Part shown: in pieces, positions 15,704-56,050 of the stretch
Position numbering within the stretch: the stretch's first letter is position 1
Layout: each line of letters opens with the position of its first letter
Assembly (NCBI RefSeq): GCF_009914755.1
Contig: NC_060926.1
DNA length: 64,000 nt
DNA from: the human T2T-CHM13v2.0 reference genome, Homo sapiens
Direction: 5' to 3' (one strand)
Notes under the pieces: model-generated
Told to the model about the DNA's origin: nothing
Seen by the model: only the letters and a program-made list of their open reading frames with translations
Databases searched by the model: none
Program-made: the position numbers and the translations under genes

Positions 15704-15717
15704 ACACACACACACAC

Positions 15718-15758
<41 letters not shown>
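15704..15758. repeat. Compound microsatellite (AC)n(AG)18
   Basis: Read directly. Confidence 0.95.

Positions 15759-18105: not shown

Positions 18106-18106
<1 letters not shown>

Positions 18107-18148
<42 letters not shown>
18107..18148. repeat. Compound microsatellite (TG)n(AG)n
   Basis: Read directly; intron 7. Confidence 0.93.
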
Positions 18149-35823: not shown

Positions 35824-35878
35824 CTGAATTTCAAATCCAAATGTTTCATTATCCTGCTTCTCCACAGTAACAAGCTTT
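35824..35878 (-). CDS. CYTIP: CYTIP exon 3 (55 nt, start of PDZ domain)
   Basis: Acceptor ttacag|A; KLVTVEKQDNETFGFEIQ with PDZ carboxylate loop TFGF; donor CAG|gtgggc. Confidence 0.96.
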
Positions 35879-36010
35879 CTGTAATAAAAATGTTTAAAAA
35901 AGAAACTGCATGAAAATTAAAGTATCACATTTGGCACAGATCTATCATTAAAAATAACTGTCACAATTAAAAATAACTGACATTTATGTAAATTGTAGTA
36001 TGTAAGATTC

Positions 36011-36084
36011 TGTGTGTGTGTCTGTGTGTGTGCGTCTGTGTGTGTGCGTAGAGAGAGAGAGAGAGAGAGAGAGGAAGAGAGAGG
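36011..36084. repeat. Compound microsatellite (TG)~19 imperfect + (AG)12, intron 2
   Basis: Read directly. Confidence 0.95.
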
Positions 36085-36153
36085 AAAAAACAGTCTGGAG
36101 AGCTATGTTCCTAAATATTTTGGGAGAGACACAAAATAATTCAATCTCTTTAC

Positions 36154-36203
36154 CTTTGAGACCAGGAAAAGTCACTTAAAGAACTTGATCTGGTCAAAGC
36201 AAG
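36154..36203 (-). CDS. CYTIP: CYTIP exon 2 (50 nt)
   Basis: Acceptor ttttcag|CTT; LALTRSSSLSDFSWSQ(R); donor AAG|gtaaag; phase 0 to 2. Confidence 0.96.
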
Positions 36204-36264
36204 CTGAAAAACACAAAAGACATATAGTTATCCCAGGGTCTTCAAGATACACTGTAAAATGTTC

Positions 36265-36268
<4 letters not shown>

Positions 36269-36357
<89 letters not shown>
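36269..36357. repeat. Compound microsatellite (TC)17(AC)27, intron 1
   Basis: Read directly. Confidence 0.97.
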
Positions 36358-36358
<1 letters not shown>

Positions 36359-38449
36359 CCTGTTCTTTACCACCTTCTTTGGCCCAGCTCCTGGGAAATT
36401 GTTGCATAAAGGCAGCCATTTCCATTCTCTACATTCTCTAGTGATAGCAGAGGAGAGTAGGGAGACAGGATTCTAGGCATTCCAGTTAAAAGATTGAAAG
36501 AGGTTTAGATAGTAATACAATGTGGCAAAAGAGTTAAAATAATGTGGCAAAACTCCAAAGCTTCCAAAGAGAACTTCCTCTCTGGTCTGTATTTAAAACA
36601 GCCTCTGAAAGATTAACCATAGCAATTTGTAATCACACTGAAATCCAAAGAAAAATAGCATACTTAGAATGGCATATGAAACCCAAATACTTTATAGTTT
36701 TTGGAGATGATGATGAAATGACAGTGTTTACTATAATAATTCAATACGTTACTGTTTTTAGTAGGATAAAATAATCTCTAAACAACCAACTCACACACAC
36801 AATTCAGGTAAAACCAGGAACTCAAAACCTCATTTCTGCTTATGATTTATTTTTGTAATAGTTTTGGAAGACTAACGTGAAATTTCCAGCCAAGAAAGGA
36901 AAGAAACCTCAGAATAGTATCAATGGTATAAATAATATCACCTTCATTCCTCTGCACTTTTGGAAAAGATCATATAAACATAAGCTTTCAGGACACATTC
37001 TACCACTGTAAACAGAAGCAGCATCAACAAAAGGTGACAACTTATTTTTTAGGAAAATTGCAGCAGGTTTTTGTGTTTTTTTGGTCGGTTTGTTTCTTTG
37101 TTCAGGAAATGTTTATTAGCCCTATTCTCAAATGTTGCTTCAAGGGCCCAAAACATAAGCTACTAGCTAACCCATGGTTTTTAATTGTCAACCTGAAATG
37201 GTTGTCATATATAAATGAACACATAAAATATCAAGAGATCAATGCATAGTCAGTCCAGACAAAGCAAAATAAAATAAGTAAAGGATGAAAACTAGAAGGG
37301 GGAAAATATGTAGGAGATATTAATGCTTATGTGACAAGTTACACAAATGAAATGCTTATTAAGACATTCATTAGGAGTGAAGCCTACATCACTGTAGGAA
37401 TTTTGAATTACCAGGTACCAAATGCCAGCATTTTCACAAATTTCCTGGAATGGACCAGTGTTAAGAATTCAGCCACCAGTCCATAAACTTAACGTAATGG
37501 AGAGGTGGTCTCTTCTTACCAATTTGCTGTAAATTAATTATATTTTCCTCTTTTGTTAGTTCTGGGCTTCAACTCACTTATATCGCAATGGAGACTGAAA
37601 TAAATTGCTCAGACCCAAAAAGATTCTCTAGTCTTGCTAAAAAGTATCTCTTTTCAATTTATAAGCACTAACTGTGGAATGCCTACAAGGATTGGTATGG
37701 TTTGTTGTAACCTGATTTTGTACCTCGTATGTACCGTTACCAAGGATAGGGACTATTCATCTATGTTAGTGGGCTTCCTTGCAGAAGAGAGCCACAAACT
37801 TGATATTTCCAAGCATTCTCAGTCTCTCCCTTATATTGTACTCATATTTTCTTAATCTATTTTTATTATCTTCAGCTGCTTGTTTTCCGCCCTTAAGCCA
37901 AATTACGTAATGATAACTAGGGCTTTTTTATTCTTTTTATAAAAGTTTCTTATACCTCTATAAATAAGGGCTTATATTTTTAAGGTATTACTCTTGCTAT
38001 CAGTATTCATCATATTATTCATATATCCATATAGAGAGAGCTATATATATATGTATACATATATGTATATATTTATATGAAATGCATACTGGATCAAATA
38101 CTTCACATCTGTACATAATCATCTGTGTGATTTGGACCTCTTGGGGAATGTTATTTGTTTTACTTTCTGCCCCAATGCCCAACACAGGGCCTGGAATAGA
38201 ATGGAAACTTAAAAATGGAGAAATAGATAAAAATAAATAAACTACTAAACGAAAATGGAAGCAACTGAGATGGTTGAAGAGCCACATTAAATATTCACGT
38301 TCAGGAGAAATATGTAAAGATAGTCTTCAACATTGTCCTTTATTAAATTCAATATCATAGGAAAAACTCAAGGATAATCACTAAAATACATAAAGTAAAA
38401 TTTAAAAATCTTAAATATGTAGCAAGATTTAAAAATGAAAGAAAACAGA

Positions 38450-40150
<1,701 letters not shown>

Positions 40151-41759
40151 CCAAAAAATTTTAAATGAAAGAAAACAGACAAGAACAAAAAAAAAAATTC
40201 AATCCGAAACAAGAAATGCAGAAAAAGTACTAACAGAAAACAAAGATAGTAGTGCCTTAGTACATAGCTGCTAAGTGGATGAATGGTGGCAAGAATTAAT
40301 AAATTATTAGTAAAATTTTGAGCCTTGTCAATTTTAAATACCCTTTTAGTATGCCGGAAATCAGTGCATCTATTAGGAACTTCAAGATTTCATCCAATCG
40401 GTCTTTTGAATCAAAAGTCATTCTGGATAGATTCAAATGTAAAATCTTTTAAACCACAGGACAGACCTGAAGCCTCTATAGATATTTCCCCCACCACTCT
40501 ACTTCTAACCTTTCTATCTAGCTAATTGACTAGTTAAAGATGAAAATATTTGTCTAGCACAACATGAGAAGCATAGCAGATTTTCAGTTCCTGTGGACTG
40601 ACTAATTTGGGTTATCAGCAACACCAAAAGTCAGATTAAGTCAAATTACAAATTAGTTTCCATTCGGTATTAGCTAAGAGGCTGTTTCAAGCATCTAACA
40701 CTTAAACAAAAAACAATTTAAATAAATTAAGTACCGTCAAATTCTCTGACACGTGCCACGTCTTGACACAAAGCCTGCTTGTTTTTGATCCGGGCTGTCA
40801 GACTCAGGCGATGTGGAAAGGAATGTTCCCAGGGTTCGAAACTAGCTCACACACCAAACTACCTGCCTAAAGTGAAATGAAGTGTGTCTAAGGTCTTATC
40901 AAGGGTTTTGCACTTTGAAAAAAAAAAAAAGTCTTTCCTGCCCCGCTTTCCCTAGGGCGAGCAGCCTTATTCAAGGATCTGACCAGTGGGGTCTATGTTC
41001 CCCAGACAGCCCTCCAGTCAGAGCCTTTTCTAAGGGTTGTAGTGATGGCGCCAAAAATCATGAATGAGGAACTGGTGTGCAATTCACAGCATATGCTGGC
41101 AACAGCTGTCTTTTATTACACATTATCTAATATGAGAAATCTAGGTTTAGCAATTTGGCAGGCTTGCAAACTACACATTCAATTATGACTGCTGAATAGA
41201 CAAAGCTTCTTAACTCCTTGCTAGCCATAATACACTGATACCTAGGGTTGGGCTTACGATCACTCTTCTGTTTTTAGTCAGATAACTTAAAAGATCAGGC
41301 ATTAATATTCAAAATTTAATTTCTTCTGCTCTGCAGTGATTCTACACATTCCTCTTCAGTGGGAAACCAAGACCAAATACTTCAGCTGTCAATTTCTGAA
41401 AGACAGGAGTACTTGGCAGCTCAGCCAGATAGCCAGCTCTCCTTAGAGAAGCTCAAAGTTCAACACTTTAGCCACTTCTGGGTTACAGAGGTTACTTCCT
41501 CCTGGTCCCCACTCTATATACTCATCTCCTGAAAGTGTTGGGGAGGGTGCGGGGGAGAGGTTACTGATTCCAGAGTGAGGTTTTTTGTCACTGTTACTTG
41601 TTTCAAAGGCCCCAAAATTATGTGCTCTGCTCCCTTTCCAGTCCCCTGCCTCACTCCCCAATTCTTCCATGCAACTCCCACCCACTTTTAAATAAGGAGC
41701 ATTAGGATATCAACGCTCCACAGACTATTCAAAGATGCAACAAAATAATGGAGCTGAAC

Positions 41760-41930
41760 TTAATTTCCTGACGTTAAGTGCCCGGAGAAACCGAAATACA
41801 ATACCGCCATTTCCAAGTAAGGTCTGATGGTGGGCTCACAGACTCTTCAAGAAAAATTATTGGATATTGACCATGCATGCCACAATACAGATTAAAGAAT
41901 AATTTTCAAAGTCTTTTCTAGTGAAATTAG
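41760..41930. promoter_or_regulatory. Candidate intron-1 enhancer (ISRE, ETS/CRE, YY1, STAT6-type)
   Basis: TTCCTGACGT 41765-41774, GAAACCGAAA 41787-41796, CCGCCATTT 41804-41812, TTCTAGTGAA 41916-41925; locally retained CpGs in unique sequence. Confidence 0.4.
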
Positions 41931-43014
41931 CACAGTTTTCTACCTAAAATTGTCATGAGGTGATTAAAATCCTTTGGTGTAGTTCAGGACAATTGGGAGT
42001 TACGGCACCTGATGGGTGTGCTGCCGGACACACCGTGAAAGCTCCTGCAGGGCAGAGCCCAGCCCAGCAGTGTACACATCCCAGAGCAGAGCACACATTC
42101 CCTATCTGAACTTATAGATGAAATCAGCCTGCCAGAAGTTGCCTATTTAGCAATAATGTGATAACTAAAAGAAAATTAGGAAAAGAGAGTCAGTCTGTGG
42201 TACCACTGAAGTTTGTGGACTTGTTTGTCAGGTCCCTGGTTCTCACTATAGCATTCTGTAAAAACTGCTTTCCAAAAGCAACGTACTACATTTATGAGAG
42301 TGGGTGGTAAGACAATCACTACTTCTTTGACATCATTGATAGAGACTGTCCTTAATTCCTCCTGTCTCCTTCCTACCGAGCTTTCCATTGCAAAGATTTT
42401 TTTTTTTTGTCCTAAAACTGTGTTCACAAGTAGAAGCCATACTGGGGTGTCTGACACTTCCTATCAGTACAGGTAGTGAGATAATATGCACACAGAGAAA
42501 TCTATCTTTAAATAATTCTGAATGTAAACACCCAATTGATTCTGAAGACTAATTTGAAACTACAAGCTAACCAGATATAGCTTTGCAGAAACCAAAGCCA
42601 ACAACAACAAGAAGTATGAGCTGTTGACGTCAGCCCTGAAAGTGTTGAAAATAACAGTAGGCAGAGAAACACCTGCTCATGTGATTGCCTCACAAGGATC
42701 TTGTTGCCTGCAATTTAGTCAGTGCCAAATGGGTGATTATTCTCTAAAAACCAGTTAAAGGAAATGAACATCCATTTGGAAGATTGTGAAATGTTGGGAT
42801 AAACTTGCATCAAGTCTCATTGATGATAATTGTACGGAATCAGAACTATCATGTACAAGAAGTTTTGTTTTGCTATTTTTTAAAGCAATTCTCACAACAG
42901 TAAGAAAAAGCTGTTTGAATATGGAAAGTCTACCACATGAAAGAATTTGAGAGAAGGGGAATGAGAAGACCTAGAAAAGATGAGAACATCTGCATAAATT
43001 AATTAGTATGGGGA

Positions 43015-43053
43015 TGTGTGTGTGCCTGTGTGCATATGTGTACATGTACATAT

Positions 43054-43090
<37 letters not shown>
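43015..43090. repeat. Self-complementary (TG)..(CA)n alternating purine-pyrimidine tract
   Basis: gtgcatatgt / acatatgcac inner arms flanked by (TG)n and (CA)n. Confidence 0.85.
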
Positions 43091-43092
<2 letters not shown>

Positions 43093-44569
43093 TATTTCAT
43101 ATGCCAAAATCCCTCTCTTTATCCTCCTCTGATAATCAGCCTCTCCTACTGATTGCCTTCTTTCAGTTCACGCTATCTTCACTCTGGCTTAAAACCAGAT
43201 GTGACTCCTCCGTCTTCAGTCCCTTTCATATTAAAGCCTTTCAGTCTCCTTTCTGTTCCCCCATTTCCTCTTTCTCCAACTACTGCAAAAGTTCCTCCCT
43301 CACCACTAGTCTCTACTCACTAATCCACTACATTTCTACAATAAGGTTCCTGAAATCCTCTACTTCTCAAACACGTTCAGTGGCCCTCGTGCCGGCTTTT
43401 TCAGGGGAAGTTGTCCAAGTGTTCTGTAAAGCAGCCCAGCGCTGAGATCTCCTCTCACCTCCTACACACTAACCAGGTTCTCCTGACACACTTAATATTG
43501 TGTTGTTACACAAAAAAGTCCTCCAGGCACCAGGATCTATGCCTCAGCTTCAATTTCTCCCTTGCTCTGGAATACCCTTCAATATCTGGAATACCCTTCA
43601 ATATCTCGAATATCTATTTCCAAGGCTATATTTACAGATGTTTCACTTCGATGAGAGTATTCATGTTGTTTTACTTTGCAGAAAACCCATTCTTTCTGCT
43701 TACTGAATTGTAAACAGTATATGGGTAGGAAACATTCCCTTCTCGTCTTTTTACCTCCTACACTTAGCATGATGTCTGTCTCCTTGTAGGTGCTCAGAAA
43801 CCATCTGTTGCATTGAATTGCATGGGCTAGAGAGTAGATCAAATGAGTAAGGTTGCAGGTATGGAGGACATAGAGGGTGGAAAGTTCCCACCCTGATTGA
43901 AAAAGTACCCACAGTCTCCAGCAAAAAAAAAAAAAAAATCATAGCCTAATCAAGTGAACCATAGTTGGTGTGATAGTGTCATGGCAAATATAAAGAAAAT
44001 CTGACTGCTTTATATCTGAAAACTGAAAAAAGATGTCAGCATTTCTCATGTTGCTTTATCTTCAGACAGGTTGTAGATTGATAAAATGTTCATCATTACA
44101 TTAAACTTTGTATCATAAAAGCACTTTAGATTGAGAACAATCAATAATCCAAATCATGGAAAATTGTGCCCTTATCTTCACTCTGAAAAATACCAAGGAA
44201 TCAGCTATTATACATCACTGAAAAAAGATCATGTCTCTCCCACTATGCCATACCTCTCTAATCCTGAATTTAGAAGGCTTACGAGAAGCACATGATTGTA
44301 CATGCAAGACTTAAGCGCAAAAATTCTTGCTCTAGGGCAATTCTAAATATTTTCTGTAGAAATGCTACATCGAAATTCAAATATGTACCTGGGGATTTAG
44401 AGCAAGTTGTTTAAAAAAAATCCTGAAGAGGTATTATGGTTAAAAAAAAATTTTTACATGTTAGAAATTGAAGAACGAAAAAATCAAAATAAATTCAGTT
44501 AGACATAGATTTTTCCAAATGAGTTTTCATCCCTAGAGACAAACTTTGCAATAAAAATATTAAAATGGC

Positions 44570-44790
44570 ATAATCTAGCATTTAATAAACACACACTGAA
44601 TGCCAGTCACTGTGTTAGGCACTGCACAGTTCCTTATTTAACCAACATAAGAACCCAATAAGGGTGGTTCTATTATTAACTCCATTTTAGAAAAAACAAA
44701 ACTGAAGCTTAGAGAGGCAAGTGGCTTGCTCAAGATCCCACAGACACTAAGTGGTGAGCTGATATTCAATCTGGCACTCATCTATCCAAA
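44570..44790 (-). mobile_element. MIR
   Basis: cactgtgttaggcact...tattattaactccattttaga..aaactgaagcttagagagg.aagtggcttgctcaagatcccacag. Confidence 0.8.
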
Positions 44791-45295
44791 AAAAAAAAAT
44801 CTTACTTTCCAATAGCCTGAGGTATGTGCCAGCAACCCAGAGCTGAAGATAATTAGTCAACAAAATTTGTCCTCAGAAAAAGTATTTCTTATTTGATTAT
44901 GAACTGAAATGACCATCAAGGACTGCAAGTAAGGATGGAAGGGAAAGAATCAGTGGAGACACAATGGGGAAAAGAGAATTAATTCTCATACTGGTTGTAT
45001 CTATATAAACCATCTTCAAGTTTTTTATGCTTAATGATGTTTATTTTACCTGAGCACTTCTTCAAATAAGAAAAACAATCTTAATTTTTGCCTTGAAAAA
45101 AAAGTTTGATTGTGGTCTCAAATCTTTGGACTGGTTCACCTAGCTCCCTGAGCATCTCACCTCCTTCACCCATAATAATCAGCCAGTAATTCCAAAGCCT
45201 CTAAAATATCACCATTAGTATGAAGTCAGACAAACATATCACTCTGCCCTCAAGAGAATGTGAACACTCTAAAGGGTACAAAATAGCAATCATAC

Positions 45296-46927: not shown

Positions 46928-46966
<39 letters not shown>
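46928..46966. repeat. (TG)n microsatellite ~1.4 kb upstream of exon 1
   Basis: Read directly. Confidence 0.95.
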
Positions 46967-54849: not shown

Positions 54850-55566
54850 CCTGCGTCACACTCAGGGCTTGGCTTTTACTTAATCTTAACTCCTGCCCAA
54901 TGGGCGTGGACAGGCAGCCCCACAGAATCGGCAAGGGCTTCAGGGCTGTAGAAAGTAACTTCTTAGAAAGCAAGAAACCTGTTTGGGGACTGGAATTTTG
55001 TGTAATACTTGGAACAACAAAACACCAGCATGAAATCTAGGTGATTTTCCCCAGGGCTTCAAATAAAATCCAGACTCCTTACCCTATCCTTCAAGGTCCT
55101 GCATGTTCCAGCAGATCCTACAACTTCATATCACCCTGGTCACGCTGGCCTTCCTTCTGTTCCTCCAGCAGGAAGCAGTTCCTCCTGAGGGCTTTTGCAC
55201 TCACTGCTTCTTCTGCCCAAAACACTGTTCCCCTTGGCCTGTTTCATTTGTCTTCTCTCTCTCTCTCTCCAAATCCCAGTTCAAATATTACCGACTAGGG
55301 AGGTCCCAACTCAACCCATTGAATAAAGGTGATAAGTCACATCCAGATGTGGATGGACGAGCTCTAGGGAGAACTTTCACCTTAGTGTTCCCCAAATAGA
55401 CACTCCTCCACTCTGCTTACCTTCTGGAGCTGCCTGGATTCGCTCTGCCCCCTATAGGGGACTTGTCTTTGAGAATGGTAAGTGGATCGGCAGAGAAAGG
55501 CCAATAGGAAGCAACAGTTGGAATGTTCCTCACCTTCTCCACTTTTGTTTTCAGAGTCTAGAAAGT

Positions 55567-55613
<47 letters not shown>

Positions 55614-55670: not shown

Positions 55671-56050
55671 TTTATTTCTTTTCCTGACTGTTTACAATTT
55701 GTAAAAAAAGATATGAAACCTCAATTGTTTTGAGATTCAAATGTAACACAGGGAATAGTATACCAGTCATTTTTGGGTGCCCATAACCTAGCACAGAGCC
55801 TGACTTATAATAGGCAGCCATAAACGTTTCTCAAATTTTATTTAATTGACATAAGTCAAATATATACAGTTCAGGGTAGTAAGCACAGGAGAGAAACCAA
55901 TAACAATATAGCCCTCTAATAAATCCATACTATTTGTTAGACTCCTCAGTAAAGAATAGAATCGAGTATATATTGGTTTGCTATATATATCAAATACATA
56001 TATATATTTCTCTTTCTTTCTCTCTCTCTCTCTCTCCATCTGTATATCTC

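What the first reader, a model, noticed from the sequence alone, without database searches (positions are those of the whole stretch)
36011..36357. Inverted compound microsatellites clamp CYTIP exon 2: candidate STR-built RNA hairpin splicing switch
Seen: on the pre-mRNA the order is 5'-(GU)27(GA)17 ... exon 2 (50 nt) ... (CU)12 + imperfect (CA)~19-3'. The two compound repeats are reverse complements in matching block order. They can form a ~60-70 bp stem whose ~185-195 nt loop holds the whole exon, its acceptor region and its donor. Two of the interruptions (ACGC) become G-U wobbles on the transcribed strand; two (AGAC) are G-G mismatches. Skipping exon 2 shifts the frame to ...RKQ-KACYCGEAG* (TAA 35849-35851, 67 aa, NMD-type); skipping exons 2+3 (105 nt) stays in frame but removes the PDZ TFGF loop. 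Established: (UG)n binds TDP-43 (as at the CFTR exon 9 acceptor), (CA)n binds hnRNP L (a lymphocyte splicing regulator), (CU)n binds PTBP1, and flanking complementarity can drive exon skipping. Inference: competition between stem formation and these proteins, tuned by repeat-length alleles, could set CYTIP dosage.
Basis: partly seen in the sequence, partly recalled or inferred. Interest (0 to 1): 0.8.

Follow-up and report, generated by a model that had tools for sequence, protein, structure and literature searches.

The report
Inverted microsatellites bracket CYTIP exon 2
Two common dinucleotide-repeat blocks sit in opposite orientation on either side of a 50-base coding exon of the human immune gene CYTIP and could zip into a very long RNA stem, but nothing available here shows that this changes splicing.

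Summary
On the CYTIP strand the order is (GT)27-28(GA)17, 65 nt, exon 2 (50 nt), 70 nt, imperfect (CT)n, imperfect (CA)n. The arms pair junction to junction: 69 bp, a 186-nt loop, MFE -184 kcal/mol against -109 in shuffles, z -13.5.

The arrangement is rare. None of 68 sampled (GT)n(GA)n sites on chromosome 1 has a comparable partner.

Each arm belongs to the second commonest human compound-microsatellite class. The flanks share no homology. The window is unusually rich in such repeats.

The "switch" is untested. No exon-2-skipping isoform appears in the supplied annotation or in the papers searched. A trimming series shows the stem gain is saturated: -126 kcal/mol at 27 GU units, -123 at 19, -77 at 6. 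Thermodynamic tuning by repeat length is therefore unlikely.

Exon loop-out by flanking complementarity is a known mechanism, and simple-repeat stems have a Drosophila precedent. My best reading is a neutral accident that may cause a low-level, NMD-targeted skipping leak.

The parts
36303..36357 (-). Upstream arm, outer block: pure (GU)27-28 in intron 1
   Evidence: TRF gives 28.0 copies at 100% matches. A regex run finds 27 GT units at 36356-36303. It forms 37 pairs with the (CA) block in the MFE.
36269..36302 (-). Upstream arm, inner block: pure (GA)17 in intron 1
   Evidence: TRF gives 17.0 copies at 100% matches. It forms 32 pairs with the (CU) block.
36204..36268 (-). 65-nt end of intron 1 inside the loop, holding the branch region, the pyrimidine tract and the AG acceptor of exon 2
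   Evidence: The acceptor context is ...TGTCTTTTGTGTTTTTCAG|C. Mean P(unpaired) of the last 20 nt is 0.41.
36154..36203 (-). CYTIP exon 2: 50 nt, coding, not a multiple of 3
   Evidence: The position comes from the supplied annotation. The translation is consistent with a 359-aa ORF.
36084..36153 (-). First 70 nt of intron 2 inside the loop, including the donor AAG|GTAAAG
   Evidence: The donor region is predicted mostly paired locally (P unpaired 0.13).
36050..36083 (-). Downstream arm, inner block: imperfect (CU)n with a pure (CU)12 run at 36073-36050 and one CUUCC interruption
   Evidence: TRF gives 17 copies at 87% matches. The run is listed. C36074 is unpaired and U36050 is bulged.
36011..36049 (-). 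Downstream arm, outer block: imperfect (CA)~19, made of a 14-nt unit repeated 2.8 times
   Evidence: TRF gives period 14 at 96% matches, or period 2 at 82%. There are G-G mismatches at 36036 and 36022 and two U-G wobbles.
35824..35878 (-). Exon 3 (55 nt), which carries the premature TAA (35851-35849) if exon 2 is skipped. Intron 2 is only 275 nt.
   Evidence: One search gives the skip-2 product of 67 aa. One search gives the intron sizes.

Best explanation
Two separately born compound microsatellites lie in opposite orientation 65 nt upstream and 70 nt downstream of CYTIP exon 2. Both belong to the very common (GT)n(GA)n / (TC)n(AC)n class. In naked pre-mRNA they would zip into a 69-bp stem whose register is fixed by the block junctions, enclosing exon 2 and both its splice sites in a 186-nt loop.

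I judge the arrangement most likely to be a selectively neutral accident in a microsatellite-rich neighbourhood, not an evolved switch.

The inferred mechanism is as follows:
- The single-stranded arms are excellent sites for abundant nuclear RNA-binding proteins, so the stem forms only in a minority of transcripts.
- Where it does form, it isolates exon 2 and holds the intron-2 donor away from its branch site across a long rigid helix.
- That favours exon 1 to exon 3 joining, which gives a 67-aa frame-shifted product with a premature stop that should be removed by nonsense-mediated decay.
- The net effect would be a low-level constitutive leak.

Stem stability is far past saturation. Repeat-length alleles should therefore act, if at all, through protein occupancy or kinetics.
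For: Shown:
- The anatomy and the stem are established.
- The frame-shift and stop are as stated.
- Each arm is of the AC-AG couple class. Kofler 2008 Table 4 gives 5,456 in human, 173-fold over-represented, 28% in plus conformation and so about 72% in the conformation seen here, with genesis assigned to slippage (passages read).
- This genome has 1,410 exact (GT)8.5(GA)8.5 junctions.
- There is no similarity in the outer or inner flanks beyond the repeats (273 of 300 and 223 of 300 shuffles score at least as well). An inverted duplication is therefore not supported.
- The 64-kb window holds 13 GT/CA/GA/CT runs of 6 or more units. Among them are four AC-AG-type couples (36357-36269, 36083-36011, 18147-18106, 15757-15704). 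I calculate about 0.1 expected from Kofler's genome count.
- The upstream arm is pure. The downstream arm is decayed, and its interruptions are not compensated in the partner.
- The stem gain is saturated: -126.5, -123.3 and -76.7 kcal/mol at 27, 19 and 6 GU units.
- The supplied annotation's selected transcript includes exon 2, and no exon-2-skipped isoform was found in print.

Inferred: protein competition, a partial leak and NMD. These rest on established knowledge that I recalled, not on any call.
Against: - The arrangement is rare. 0 of 68 sampled sites of the same class have a comparable partner.
- From Kofler's count, uniform independent placement would give roughly one such inverted pair within 400 nt in the whole genome. 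By my own back-of-envelope estimate, well under 0.01 of these would bracket a coding exon.
- The GA and CU blocks are matched in length (34 nt each).
- The transcribed strand folds 28 kcal/mol better than the antisense strand (-184.2 against -155.9).
- Genome-wide, exons looped out by complementary intronic regions show lower inclusion, more so for more stable structures (Kalmykova 2021). A stem this strong might therefore have a real effect.
- I could test neither conservation in other mammals nor any expression data.
Confidence: 0.55

Rival explanations
1. The stem competes with TDP-43, hnRNP L and PTBP1 for the arms and acts as a regulated, allele-tunable switch. The switch sets CYTIP dosage through exon-2 skipping and nonsense-mediated decay.
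For: - The stem is very stable and persists in wider context.
- Skipping gives a premature stop.
- The arrangement is rare (0 of 68; 0 of 192 pseudo-exons).
- Looped-out exons have lower inclusion genome-wide.
- TDP-43 is the RNA-binding protein most enriched at splicing-associated tandem repeats, and a GT repeat in PLEKHA1 promotes skipping of a flanking exon.
- Deleting either of two complementary (CA)n simple repeats changed the splicing outcome in Drosophila Semaphorin-2b.
Against: - No exon-2-skipped transcript appears in the supplied annotation or in the papers searched.
- CYTIP is absent from the 10 searchable supplementary files of the splicing-repeat catalogue (file 1 not searched).
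- The stem energy is saturated over any plausible allele range, so a graded thermodynamic switch is unlikely.
- If an equilibrium stem blocked inclusion, the exon-2-containing mRNA could not be the main product.
- The interruptions in one arm are uncompensated.
- The flanks show no sign of a constrained element.
Confidence: 0.15
2. The arms act separately as single-stranded protein platforms, and no stem is needed. (UG)28 would recruit TDP-43 upstream of the acceptor. The CU and CA tracts would recruit PTBP1 and hnRNP L downstream of the donor. Exon 2 inclusion would then depend on repeat length, as at CFTR exon 9 or eNOS intron 13.
For: - The motifs and their lengths are present.
- Hamanaka 2023 describes the CFTR (TG)n/TDP-43 silencer and the PLEKHA1 GT repeat, finds TDP-43 the top enriched protein at intronic splicing-associated repeats, and cites Hui 2003 for hnRNP L at CA repeats (passages read).
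- Proteins can reach the upstream arm before the downstream arm is transcribed, about 260 nt later (distances; the kinetics are inferred).
Against: - The (UG) tract ends 99 nt upstream of the acceptor. It is not adjacent to the pyrimidine tract as at CFTR (the CFTR geometry is recalled).
- The CA tract is interrupted, with pure runs of only 5 units (own locus row).
- No CLIP or knock-down data for CYTIP were found (0 papers).
- CYTIP is not in the searchable part of the catalogue supplements.
Confidence: 0.2
3. The duplex matters as double-stranded RNA or as a back-splicing aid. It would be a substrate for ADAR editing or dsRNA-binding proteins, or a driver of an exon-2 (or larger) circular RNA.
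For: - A 69-bp near-perfect duplex is predicted.
- Flanking complementary simple repeats promoted circularisation in Drosophila.
Against: - A 50-nt single-exon circle is far below usual circRNA exon sizes (recalled, not tested).
- No paper names a CYTIP circRNA (0 papers).
- CYTIP together with A-to-I gave only two reviews, seen in the search listing only and not opened.
- The adenosines in the stem sit in GA or CA contexts (sequence). As I recall, these are not preferred by ADAR.
Confidence: 0.05
4. The effect is at the DNA level. (GT)n/(AC)n is Z-DNA-prone and (GA)n/(TC)n is triplex-prone. These tracts, or the inverted repeat itself, would slow RNA polymerase II near a very short exon or make the segment recombination- or deletion-prone.
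For: Long pure alternating purine-pyrimidine and homopurine tracts are present on both sides of the exon. Their non-B DNA propensity is established knowledge that I recalled.
Against: Nothing here tests it. The 186-bp spacer is long for cruciform extrusion (recalled). No RefSeq functional element is listed at these coordinates in the supplied table.
Confidence: 0.05

Closest known systems
Exon loop-out by complementary sequences in the flanking introns. Examples are artificial inverted repeats (Solnick 1985, Nasim 2002), the conserved flanking motifs of Miriami 2003, the PCCR exon loop-outs of Kalmykova 2021 and inverted Alu pairs.
   Same: Complementary intronic segments lie on both sides of an exon, and the predicted duplex encloses the exon with both splice sites. 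The expected outcome is skipping. Kalmykova 2021 reports lower inclusion for looped-out exons, more so for more stable structures. The class is described in a review.
   Different: The stem is built wholly from two-block microsatellites, so it is not conserved unique sequence. It is likely to be length-polymorphic. It is much stronger (-135 kcal/mol for the arms). It would have been excluded from that catalogue, which removed RepeatMasker and Tandem Repeats Finder tracks. No skipping has been shown. Solnick 1985 is recalled only.
Drosophila Semaphorin-2b circular RNA flanked by complementary (CA)n simple repeats (Kramer 2015)
   Same: Simple dinucleotide repeats in the two flanking introns pair across the exon. 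Deleting either one changed the splicing outcome in a plasmid assay (passage read).
   Different: That case has less than 30 nt of complementarity, a single motif, and back-splicing of a larger exon region as the outcome. This case has 69 bp, two blocks that fix the register, and a 50-nt exon that is too short to circularise plausibly. Nothing has been tested experimentally here.
CFTR intron 8 (TG)m next to the exon 9 acceptor, and the PLEKHA1 GT repeat (TDP-43-dependent exon skipping)
   Same: A long (UG)n tract lies upstream of an acceptor. This is a known high-affinity TDP-43 motif, and its length is associated with skipping (passages read).
   Different: Here the tract ends 99 nt from the acceptor and has a complementary partner across the exon. 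TDP-43 binding was not tested.
eNOS intron 13 (CA)n, an hnRNP L-dependent and length-dependent intronic splicing enhancer (Hui 2003)
   Same: A CA repeat lies in the intron shortly downstream of a donor site.
   Different: The CYTIP tract is interrupted (82% as a dinucleotide) and lies 105-143 nt from the donor. Hui 2003 was seen only as a citation. Its details are recalled.

Membership tests
Exon loop-out by flanking intronic complementarity | Complementary segments in the upstream and the downstream intron of one exon | tested here: met
   The arms at 36357-36269 and 36083-36011 bracket exon 2 at 36203-36154.
Exon loop-out by flanking intronic complementarity | Predicted duplex clearly more stable than controls, and kept in wider context | tested here: met
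   z is -13.47, and 0 of 100 shuffles fold as well. 71 arm-arm pairs remain in a 2.4-kb fold. 0 of 192 pseudo-exons reach the exon-2 flank score.
Exon loop-out by flanking intronic complementarity | The enclosed exon is actually skipped in some transcripts | tested here: inconclusive
   No exon-2-lacking transcript appears in the supplied RefSeq table. The papers found report only alternative promoters or start sites. No RNA-seq data can be reached.
Exon loop-out by flanking intronic complementarity | Disrupting one arm changes inclusion, and a compensatory change restores it | not testable with these tools
   This needs a minigene or genome editing.
Exon loop-out by flanking intronic complementarity | Conservation or covariation of the pairing in related species | not testable with these tools
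   No other mammalian genome is held. Within the sequence, the interruptions of the downstream arm have no compensating change in the pure upstream arm.
TDP-43 (UG)n intronic splicing silencer (CFTR exon 9 type) | An uninterrupted (UG) run of at least about 6 units | tested here: met
   There are 27-28 units at 100% matches. The threshold is recalled.
TDP-43 (UG)n intronic splicing silencer (CFTR exon 9 type) | The tract abuts the pyrimidine tract of the regulated acceptor | tested here: not met
   The tract ends at 36303, 99 nt upstream of the acceptor at 36204, with (GA)17 and 65 nt between.
TDP-43 (UG)n intronic splicing silencer (CFTR exon 9 type) | TDP-43 binding, and dependence of inclusion on TDP-43 | not testable with these tools
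   No CLIP or knock-down data are held.
circRNA-promoting flanking inverted repeats | Inverted complementary repeats in the introns flanking the circularised exon or exons | tested here: met
circRNA-promoting flanking inverted repeats | A detected back-splice junction, and an exon long enough to circularise | tested here: inconclusive
   The exon is 50 nt, far below typical single-exon circRNA sizes (recalled). 0 papers name a CYTIP circRNA. No junction data can be reached.
AC-AG compound microsatellite ('SSR-couple', Kofler 2008) | Two adjacent dinucleotide tracts, AC-type and AG-type, less than 10 bp apart | tested here: met
   In both arms the blocks abut directly.

The most novel reading that the evidence does not exclude
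A human coding exon is enclosed by a 69-bp intronic stem made entirely of two length-polymorphic compound microsatellites, with the register locked by the block junctions. In immune cells, stem formation against TDP-43, hnRNP L and PTBP1 occupancy would decide whether the 50-nt exon 2 is included or the transcript is sent to nonsense-mediated decay. The two repeats would then form a heritable, fast-mutating dosage control for CYTIP. This would be the first example of a class that existing long-range-structure catalogues cannot see, because they mask tandem repeats.
Probability: 0.12. Interest if true: 0.7.

Novelty: new variant of a known kind. Interest (0 to 1): 0.4.

Why it matters
If the stem acts in cells, it would link three things:
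- microsatellite length variation, which is among the fastest-mutating variation in the genome;
- RNA structure;
- dosage of an immune-cell adhesion and trafficking regulator, through splicing coupled to decay.

It would also point to a blind spot. The main catalogue of human long-range pre-mRNA pairings removed RepeatMasker and tandem-repeat tracks before searching, so repeat-built stems around exons have not been counted.

If the stem does not act, the locus is still a useful natural negative control. It would show that a duplex of about -135 kcal/mol around an exon can be tolerated by the splicing machinery.

Tried and rejected
- **Genome-wide count of inverted pairs.** Two gapped patterns sent to the own-genome search were not accepted. 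I sampled instead: the 8 loci plus 60 regions. These 68 come from the 100 places listed, out of 1,410 matches, and all lie on contig C1. 32 listed places were not fetched.
- **Inverted duplication as the origin.** The flank alignments are no better than shuffles, so I rejected it.
- **Processed pseudogenes as fossils of skipped mRNAs.** The last coding exon matches only its own locus.
- **Paralogue comparison.** A search with exon 4 (34 aa) found only itself and one weak match (E 2.7) on another contig. The paralogue was not reached and I dropped the step.
- **Known RNA families.** Only sub-threshold Rfam matches were found (35.2 bits against a gathering score of 80, and weaker). They are to two plant miRNA families and SCARNA7. 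I read them as low-complexity artefacts.
- **Literature.**
  - CYTIP with exon skipping gave 4 papers. I opened two, and both report only promoter or start-site events. The other two I saw in the search listing only.
  - CYTIP with tandem repeat and splicing gave 1 paper with an unrelated title, seen in the listing only.
  - Four spellings of a CYTIP circRNA gave 0 papers.
  - CYTIP with hnRNP L gave 0 papers.
  - CYTIP with A-to-I gave 2 reviews, seen in the listing only.
  - Dinucleotide repeats with flanking introns, complementary and circRNA gave 0 papers.
  - PMC10691357 gave nothing relevant.
- **A flawed control.** The 250 x 250 nt duplex score lets long interior loops chain together. 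Its absolute values are inflated, and only the ranking is used.

Full report
**1. What is in the sequence**

CYTIP is read on the minus strand. The region runs as follows:
- a pure (GT)27-28 tract (36357-36303);
- a pure (GA)17 tract (36302-36269);
- 65 nt holding the branch region, the pyrimidine tract and the acceptor;
- exon 2 (36203-36154, 50 nt);
- the donor AAG|GTAAAG and 70 nt of intron 2;
- an imperfect (CT) tract (36083-36050, 87% matches, pure (CT)12 at 36073-36050);
- an imperfect (CA) tract (36049-36011).

Tandem Repeats Finder describes the (CA) part best as a 14-nt unit repeated 2.8 times at 96% matches. They are largely one interruption pattern copied by tandem duplication.

Intron 1 is 9,092 nt and intron 2 is only 275 nt. 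The downstream arm ends 132 nt before exon 3.

**2. The hairpin**

- Folding 35990-36380 on the minus strand gives -184.2 kcal/mol. The mean of 100 dinucleotide-preserving shuffles is -108.75 (sd 5.6), so z is -13.47 and no shuffle folds as well.
- Within the repeats proper there are 69 pairs, 32 GA:CU and 37 GU:CA. The two block junctions face each other across a 1-nt bulge (U36050).
- The other unpaired positions in the downstream arm are C36074 and the two G-G mismatches at G36036 and G36022. Two of the three wobble pairs are U-G pairs at the ACGC sites.
- The arms alone give a duplex of -135.3 kcal/mol. The upstream arm alone folds at only -6.7 and the downstream arm at 0.0.
- The mean probability that an arm nucleotide pairs with the other arm is 0.78 (upstream) and 0.86 (downstream).
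- 71 arm-arm pairs survive in a 2.4-kb context.
- The loop is 186 nt.
- Because each arm has two different blocks, the junctions fix the register. A single-motif repeat stem would not do this.
- The antisense strand also folds well (-155.9, z -10.4). The 28 kcal/mol advantage of the sense strand is what G-U pairing on the GU-bearing strand would give in any case.

**3. Frame consequences**

The eight annotated coding parts give a 1,080-nt open frame. Skipping exon 2 gives ...RKQ-KACYCGEAG-stop, 67 aa. Skipping exons 2 and 3 stays in frame and removes the segment containing TFGF. Two points here are established knowledge that I recalled and did not test. One is that the stop would trigger nonsense-mediated decay. 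The other is that TFGF is the PDZ carboxylate-binding loop.

**4. Is it more than chance?**

Two questions must be kept apart.

*Question one: the fold.* The fold is far better than shuffles, but any inverted pair of repeats would be.

*Question two: the arrangement.* It is rare.
- The exact 34-nt (GT)8.5(GA)8.5 junction occurs 1,410 times in this genome (711 forward, 699 reverse). The reverse block order occurs 430 times.
- I examined 68 of the 100 listed places, all on contig C1: 8 loci and 60 fetched. I scored the best duplex between each array and its +/-1000-nt flanks.
- The best control value is -69.3 kcal/mol. Here it is -145.7. None of the 68 has an adjacent CT-plus-CA array.
- Within the gene, the flanks of exons 3-7 score -70 to -97 on a cruder measure, against -190.8 for exon 2. 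None of 192 pseudo-exons reaches that value (minimum -147.2).

Several facts lower the surprise.
- Kofler 2008 lists AC-AG couples as the second most abundant compound microsatellite in human. There are 5,456, which is 173-fold over-represented. 28% are in plus conformation, so most are in the conformation seen here. Their genesis is assigned to slippage after a point change (Table 4 read).
- From that count I calculate that uniform independent placement gives about one opposite-strand pair within 400 nt in the genome.
- Given two such couples in opposite orientation, matching block order is the likelier outcome, at about 77% from the 1,410:430 ratio.
- The window is locally rich in these repeats. 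It has 13 GT/CA/GA/CT runs of 6 or more units, including four AC-AG-type couples. About 0.1 would be expected from the genome-wide count.
- One of these, (CT)12(CA)9 at 18147-18106 in intron 7, is a second possible partner for the upstream arm.

That the pair brackets a coding exon so tightly remains an improbable coincidence under a uniform model. It was, however, picked out after the fact from a very large scan.

**5. Origin**

The outer and inner flanks of the two arms show no inverted similarity. 273 of 300 and 223 of 300 shuffles score at least as well. An inverted segmental duplication is therefore not supported.

The upstream arm is pure. The downstream arm is interrupted. By established knowledge of microsatellite decay (recalled), this suggests different ages or histories.

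**6. Does it work as a switch?**

Nothing reachable here tests splicing directly. What bears on it:

(a) *Annotation and literature.*
- The supplied annotation's selected transcript includes exon 2, and the only other listed exon is 40735-45290.
- The two papers I opened for CYTIP splicing report an alternative promoter event and a novel start site.
- Searches for CYTIP with tandem repeats, circRNA, hnRNP L or A-to-I editing found nothing relevant.
- CYTIP does not occur in the 10 searchable supplementary files of the 49-tissue splicing-repeat catalogue. One file was not searched.

(b) *Allele series.* I trimmed the pure tracts in a script. The table gives the energy gain from arm-arm pairing.

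| (GU) units, with (GA)17 | gain (kcal/mol) | (GA) units, with (GU)27 | gain (kcal/mol) |
|---|---|---|---|
| 27 | -126.5 | 17 | -126.5 |
| 19 | -123.3 | 15 | -121.6 |
| 15 | -106.4 | 11 | -112.5 |
| 6 | -76.7 | 6 | -91.8 |

The shorter, imperfect downstream arm limits the stem, and every allele is far beyond any threshold. A graded thermodynamic rheostat is therefore implausible. If an equilibrium stem prevented inclusion, the exon-2-containing mRNA could not be the main product.

(c) *Timing.* The upstream arm is made about 260 nt before the downstream arm is complete. Abundant proteins that bind single-stranded UG and GA-rich RNA can therefore occupy it first (inference). Before the 3' arm exists, the nascent RNA has only -54.2 kcal/mol of structure, and the GU tract forms a weak self-hairpin.

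(d) *Geometry.* If the stem forms, the donor of the 275-nt intron 2 lies in the loop and its branch site lies beyond a helix of about 69 bp. This should hinder exon 2-exon 3 joining (inference).

**7. Comparison with what is known**

- Exon loop-out by flanking complementarity is an established mechanism (review passages).
- In the largest human catalogue, looped-out exons show lower inclusion, and the effect grows with stability. That catalogue removed RepeatMasker and Tandem Repeats Finder tracks beforehand, so stems like this one were never assessed.
- Simple repeats can serve as such arms. In Drosophila Semaphorin-2b, complementary (CA)n repeats of less than 30 nt flank a circularised region, and removing either one strongly reduced circularisation.
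- Single repeats acting through proteins are also known. Examples are CFTR (TG)n with TDP-43 and the PLEKHA1 GT repeat, and TDP-43 is the protein most enriched at splicing-associated repeats.
- The CYTIP arrangement is therefore a new variant of a known kind if it acts at all. It is human, very long, two-block and register-locked, and it surrounds a 50-nt coding exon whose loss shifts the frame.

**8. Verdict**

My probabilities are:

| Reading | Probability |
|---|---|
| Neutral accident with at most a low-level skipping leak | 0.55 |
| Arms acting singly as protein platforms | 0.20 |
| dsRNA or circRNA role | 0.05 |
| DNA-level effect | 0.05 |

Interest is 0.4. The arrangement is rare and cleanly testable, but the mechanism class is known and there is no evidence of activity.

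Noticed in passing
window 18106-18147 (minus strand; CYTIP intron 7): A second (CT)12(CA)9 compound microsatellite lies in the same orientation as the downstream arm. It is a further potential pairing partner for the (GU)(GA) arm, about 18 kb downstream. Its flanks show at most weak similarity to those of the intron-2 array (12 of 300 and 44 of 300 shuffles score as well).
   Followed up: partly
window 15704-15757 (minus strand): A (CT)18 tract followed by a GT-rich tract starts 4 nt beyond the annotated CYTIP 3' end (15761). That is roughly where a GU-rich downstream polyadenylation element would be expected.
   Followed up: no
window 43060-43089 (minus strand; intron 1): A (GT)15 tract lies about 110 nt from the RefSeq enhancer segment 42848-42947. 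It could also compete for the (CA) block of the downstream arm from 7 kb away.
   Followed up: no
whole genome G000: The block order is asymmetric. The exact (GT)8.5(GA)8.5 junction occurs 1,410 times, against 430 for the same string read backwards ((AG)n(TG)n). I have no explanation for the 3.3-fold bias.
   Followed up: no
G000:C1 near 44.37-44.39 Mb, 103.26-103.28 Mb and 148.96-148.98 Mb (listing): Three pairs of exact junction matches lie on opposite strands 15-18 kb apart. Two same-strand pairs lie about 18 kb apart near 142.4 and 143.3 Mb. They may mark large inverted or direct duplications.
   Followed up: no
window 46928-46965 and 55569-55610 (minus strand): (CA)19 and (CA)21 tracts lie upstream of the gene. 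The second is about 170 nt from the RefSeq silencer segment 55350-55399, which is flanked by (GA)8 at 55254-55269 and (GA)9 at 56019-56036. The whole window is unusually rich in dinucleotide repeats.
   Followed up: no
window 36046-36306 (minus strand): There are sub-threshold Rfam matches to the plant miRNA precursor families MIR533 (35.2 bits, gathering score 80) and MIR408 (20.9 bits, gathering score 64). They span the GA:CU part of the hairpin and are best read as low-complexity artefacts.
   Followed up: yes
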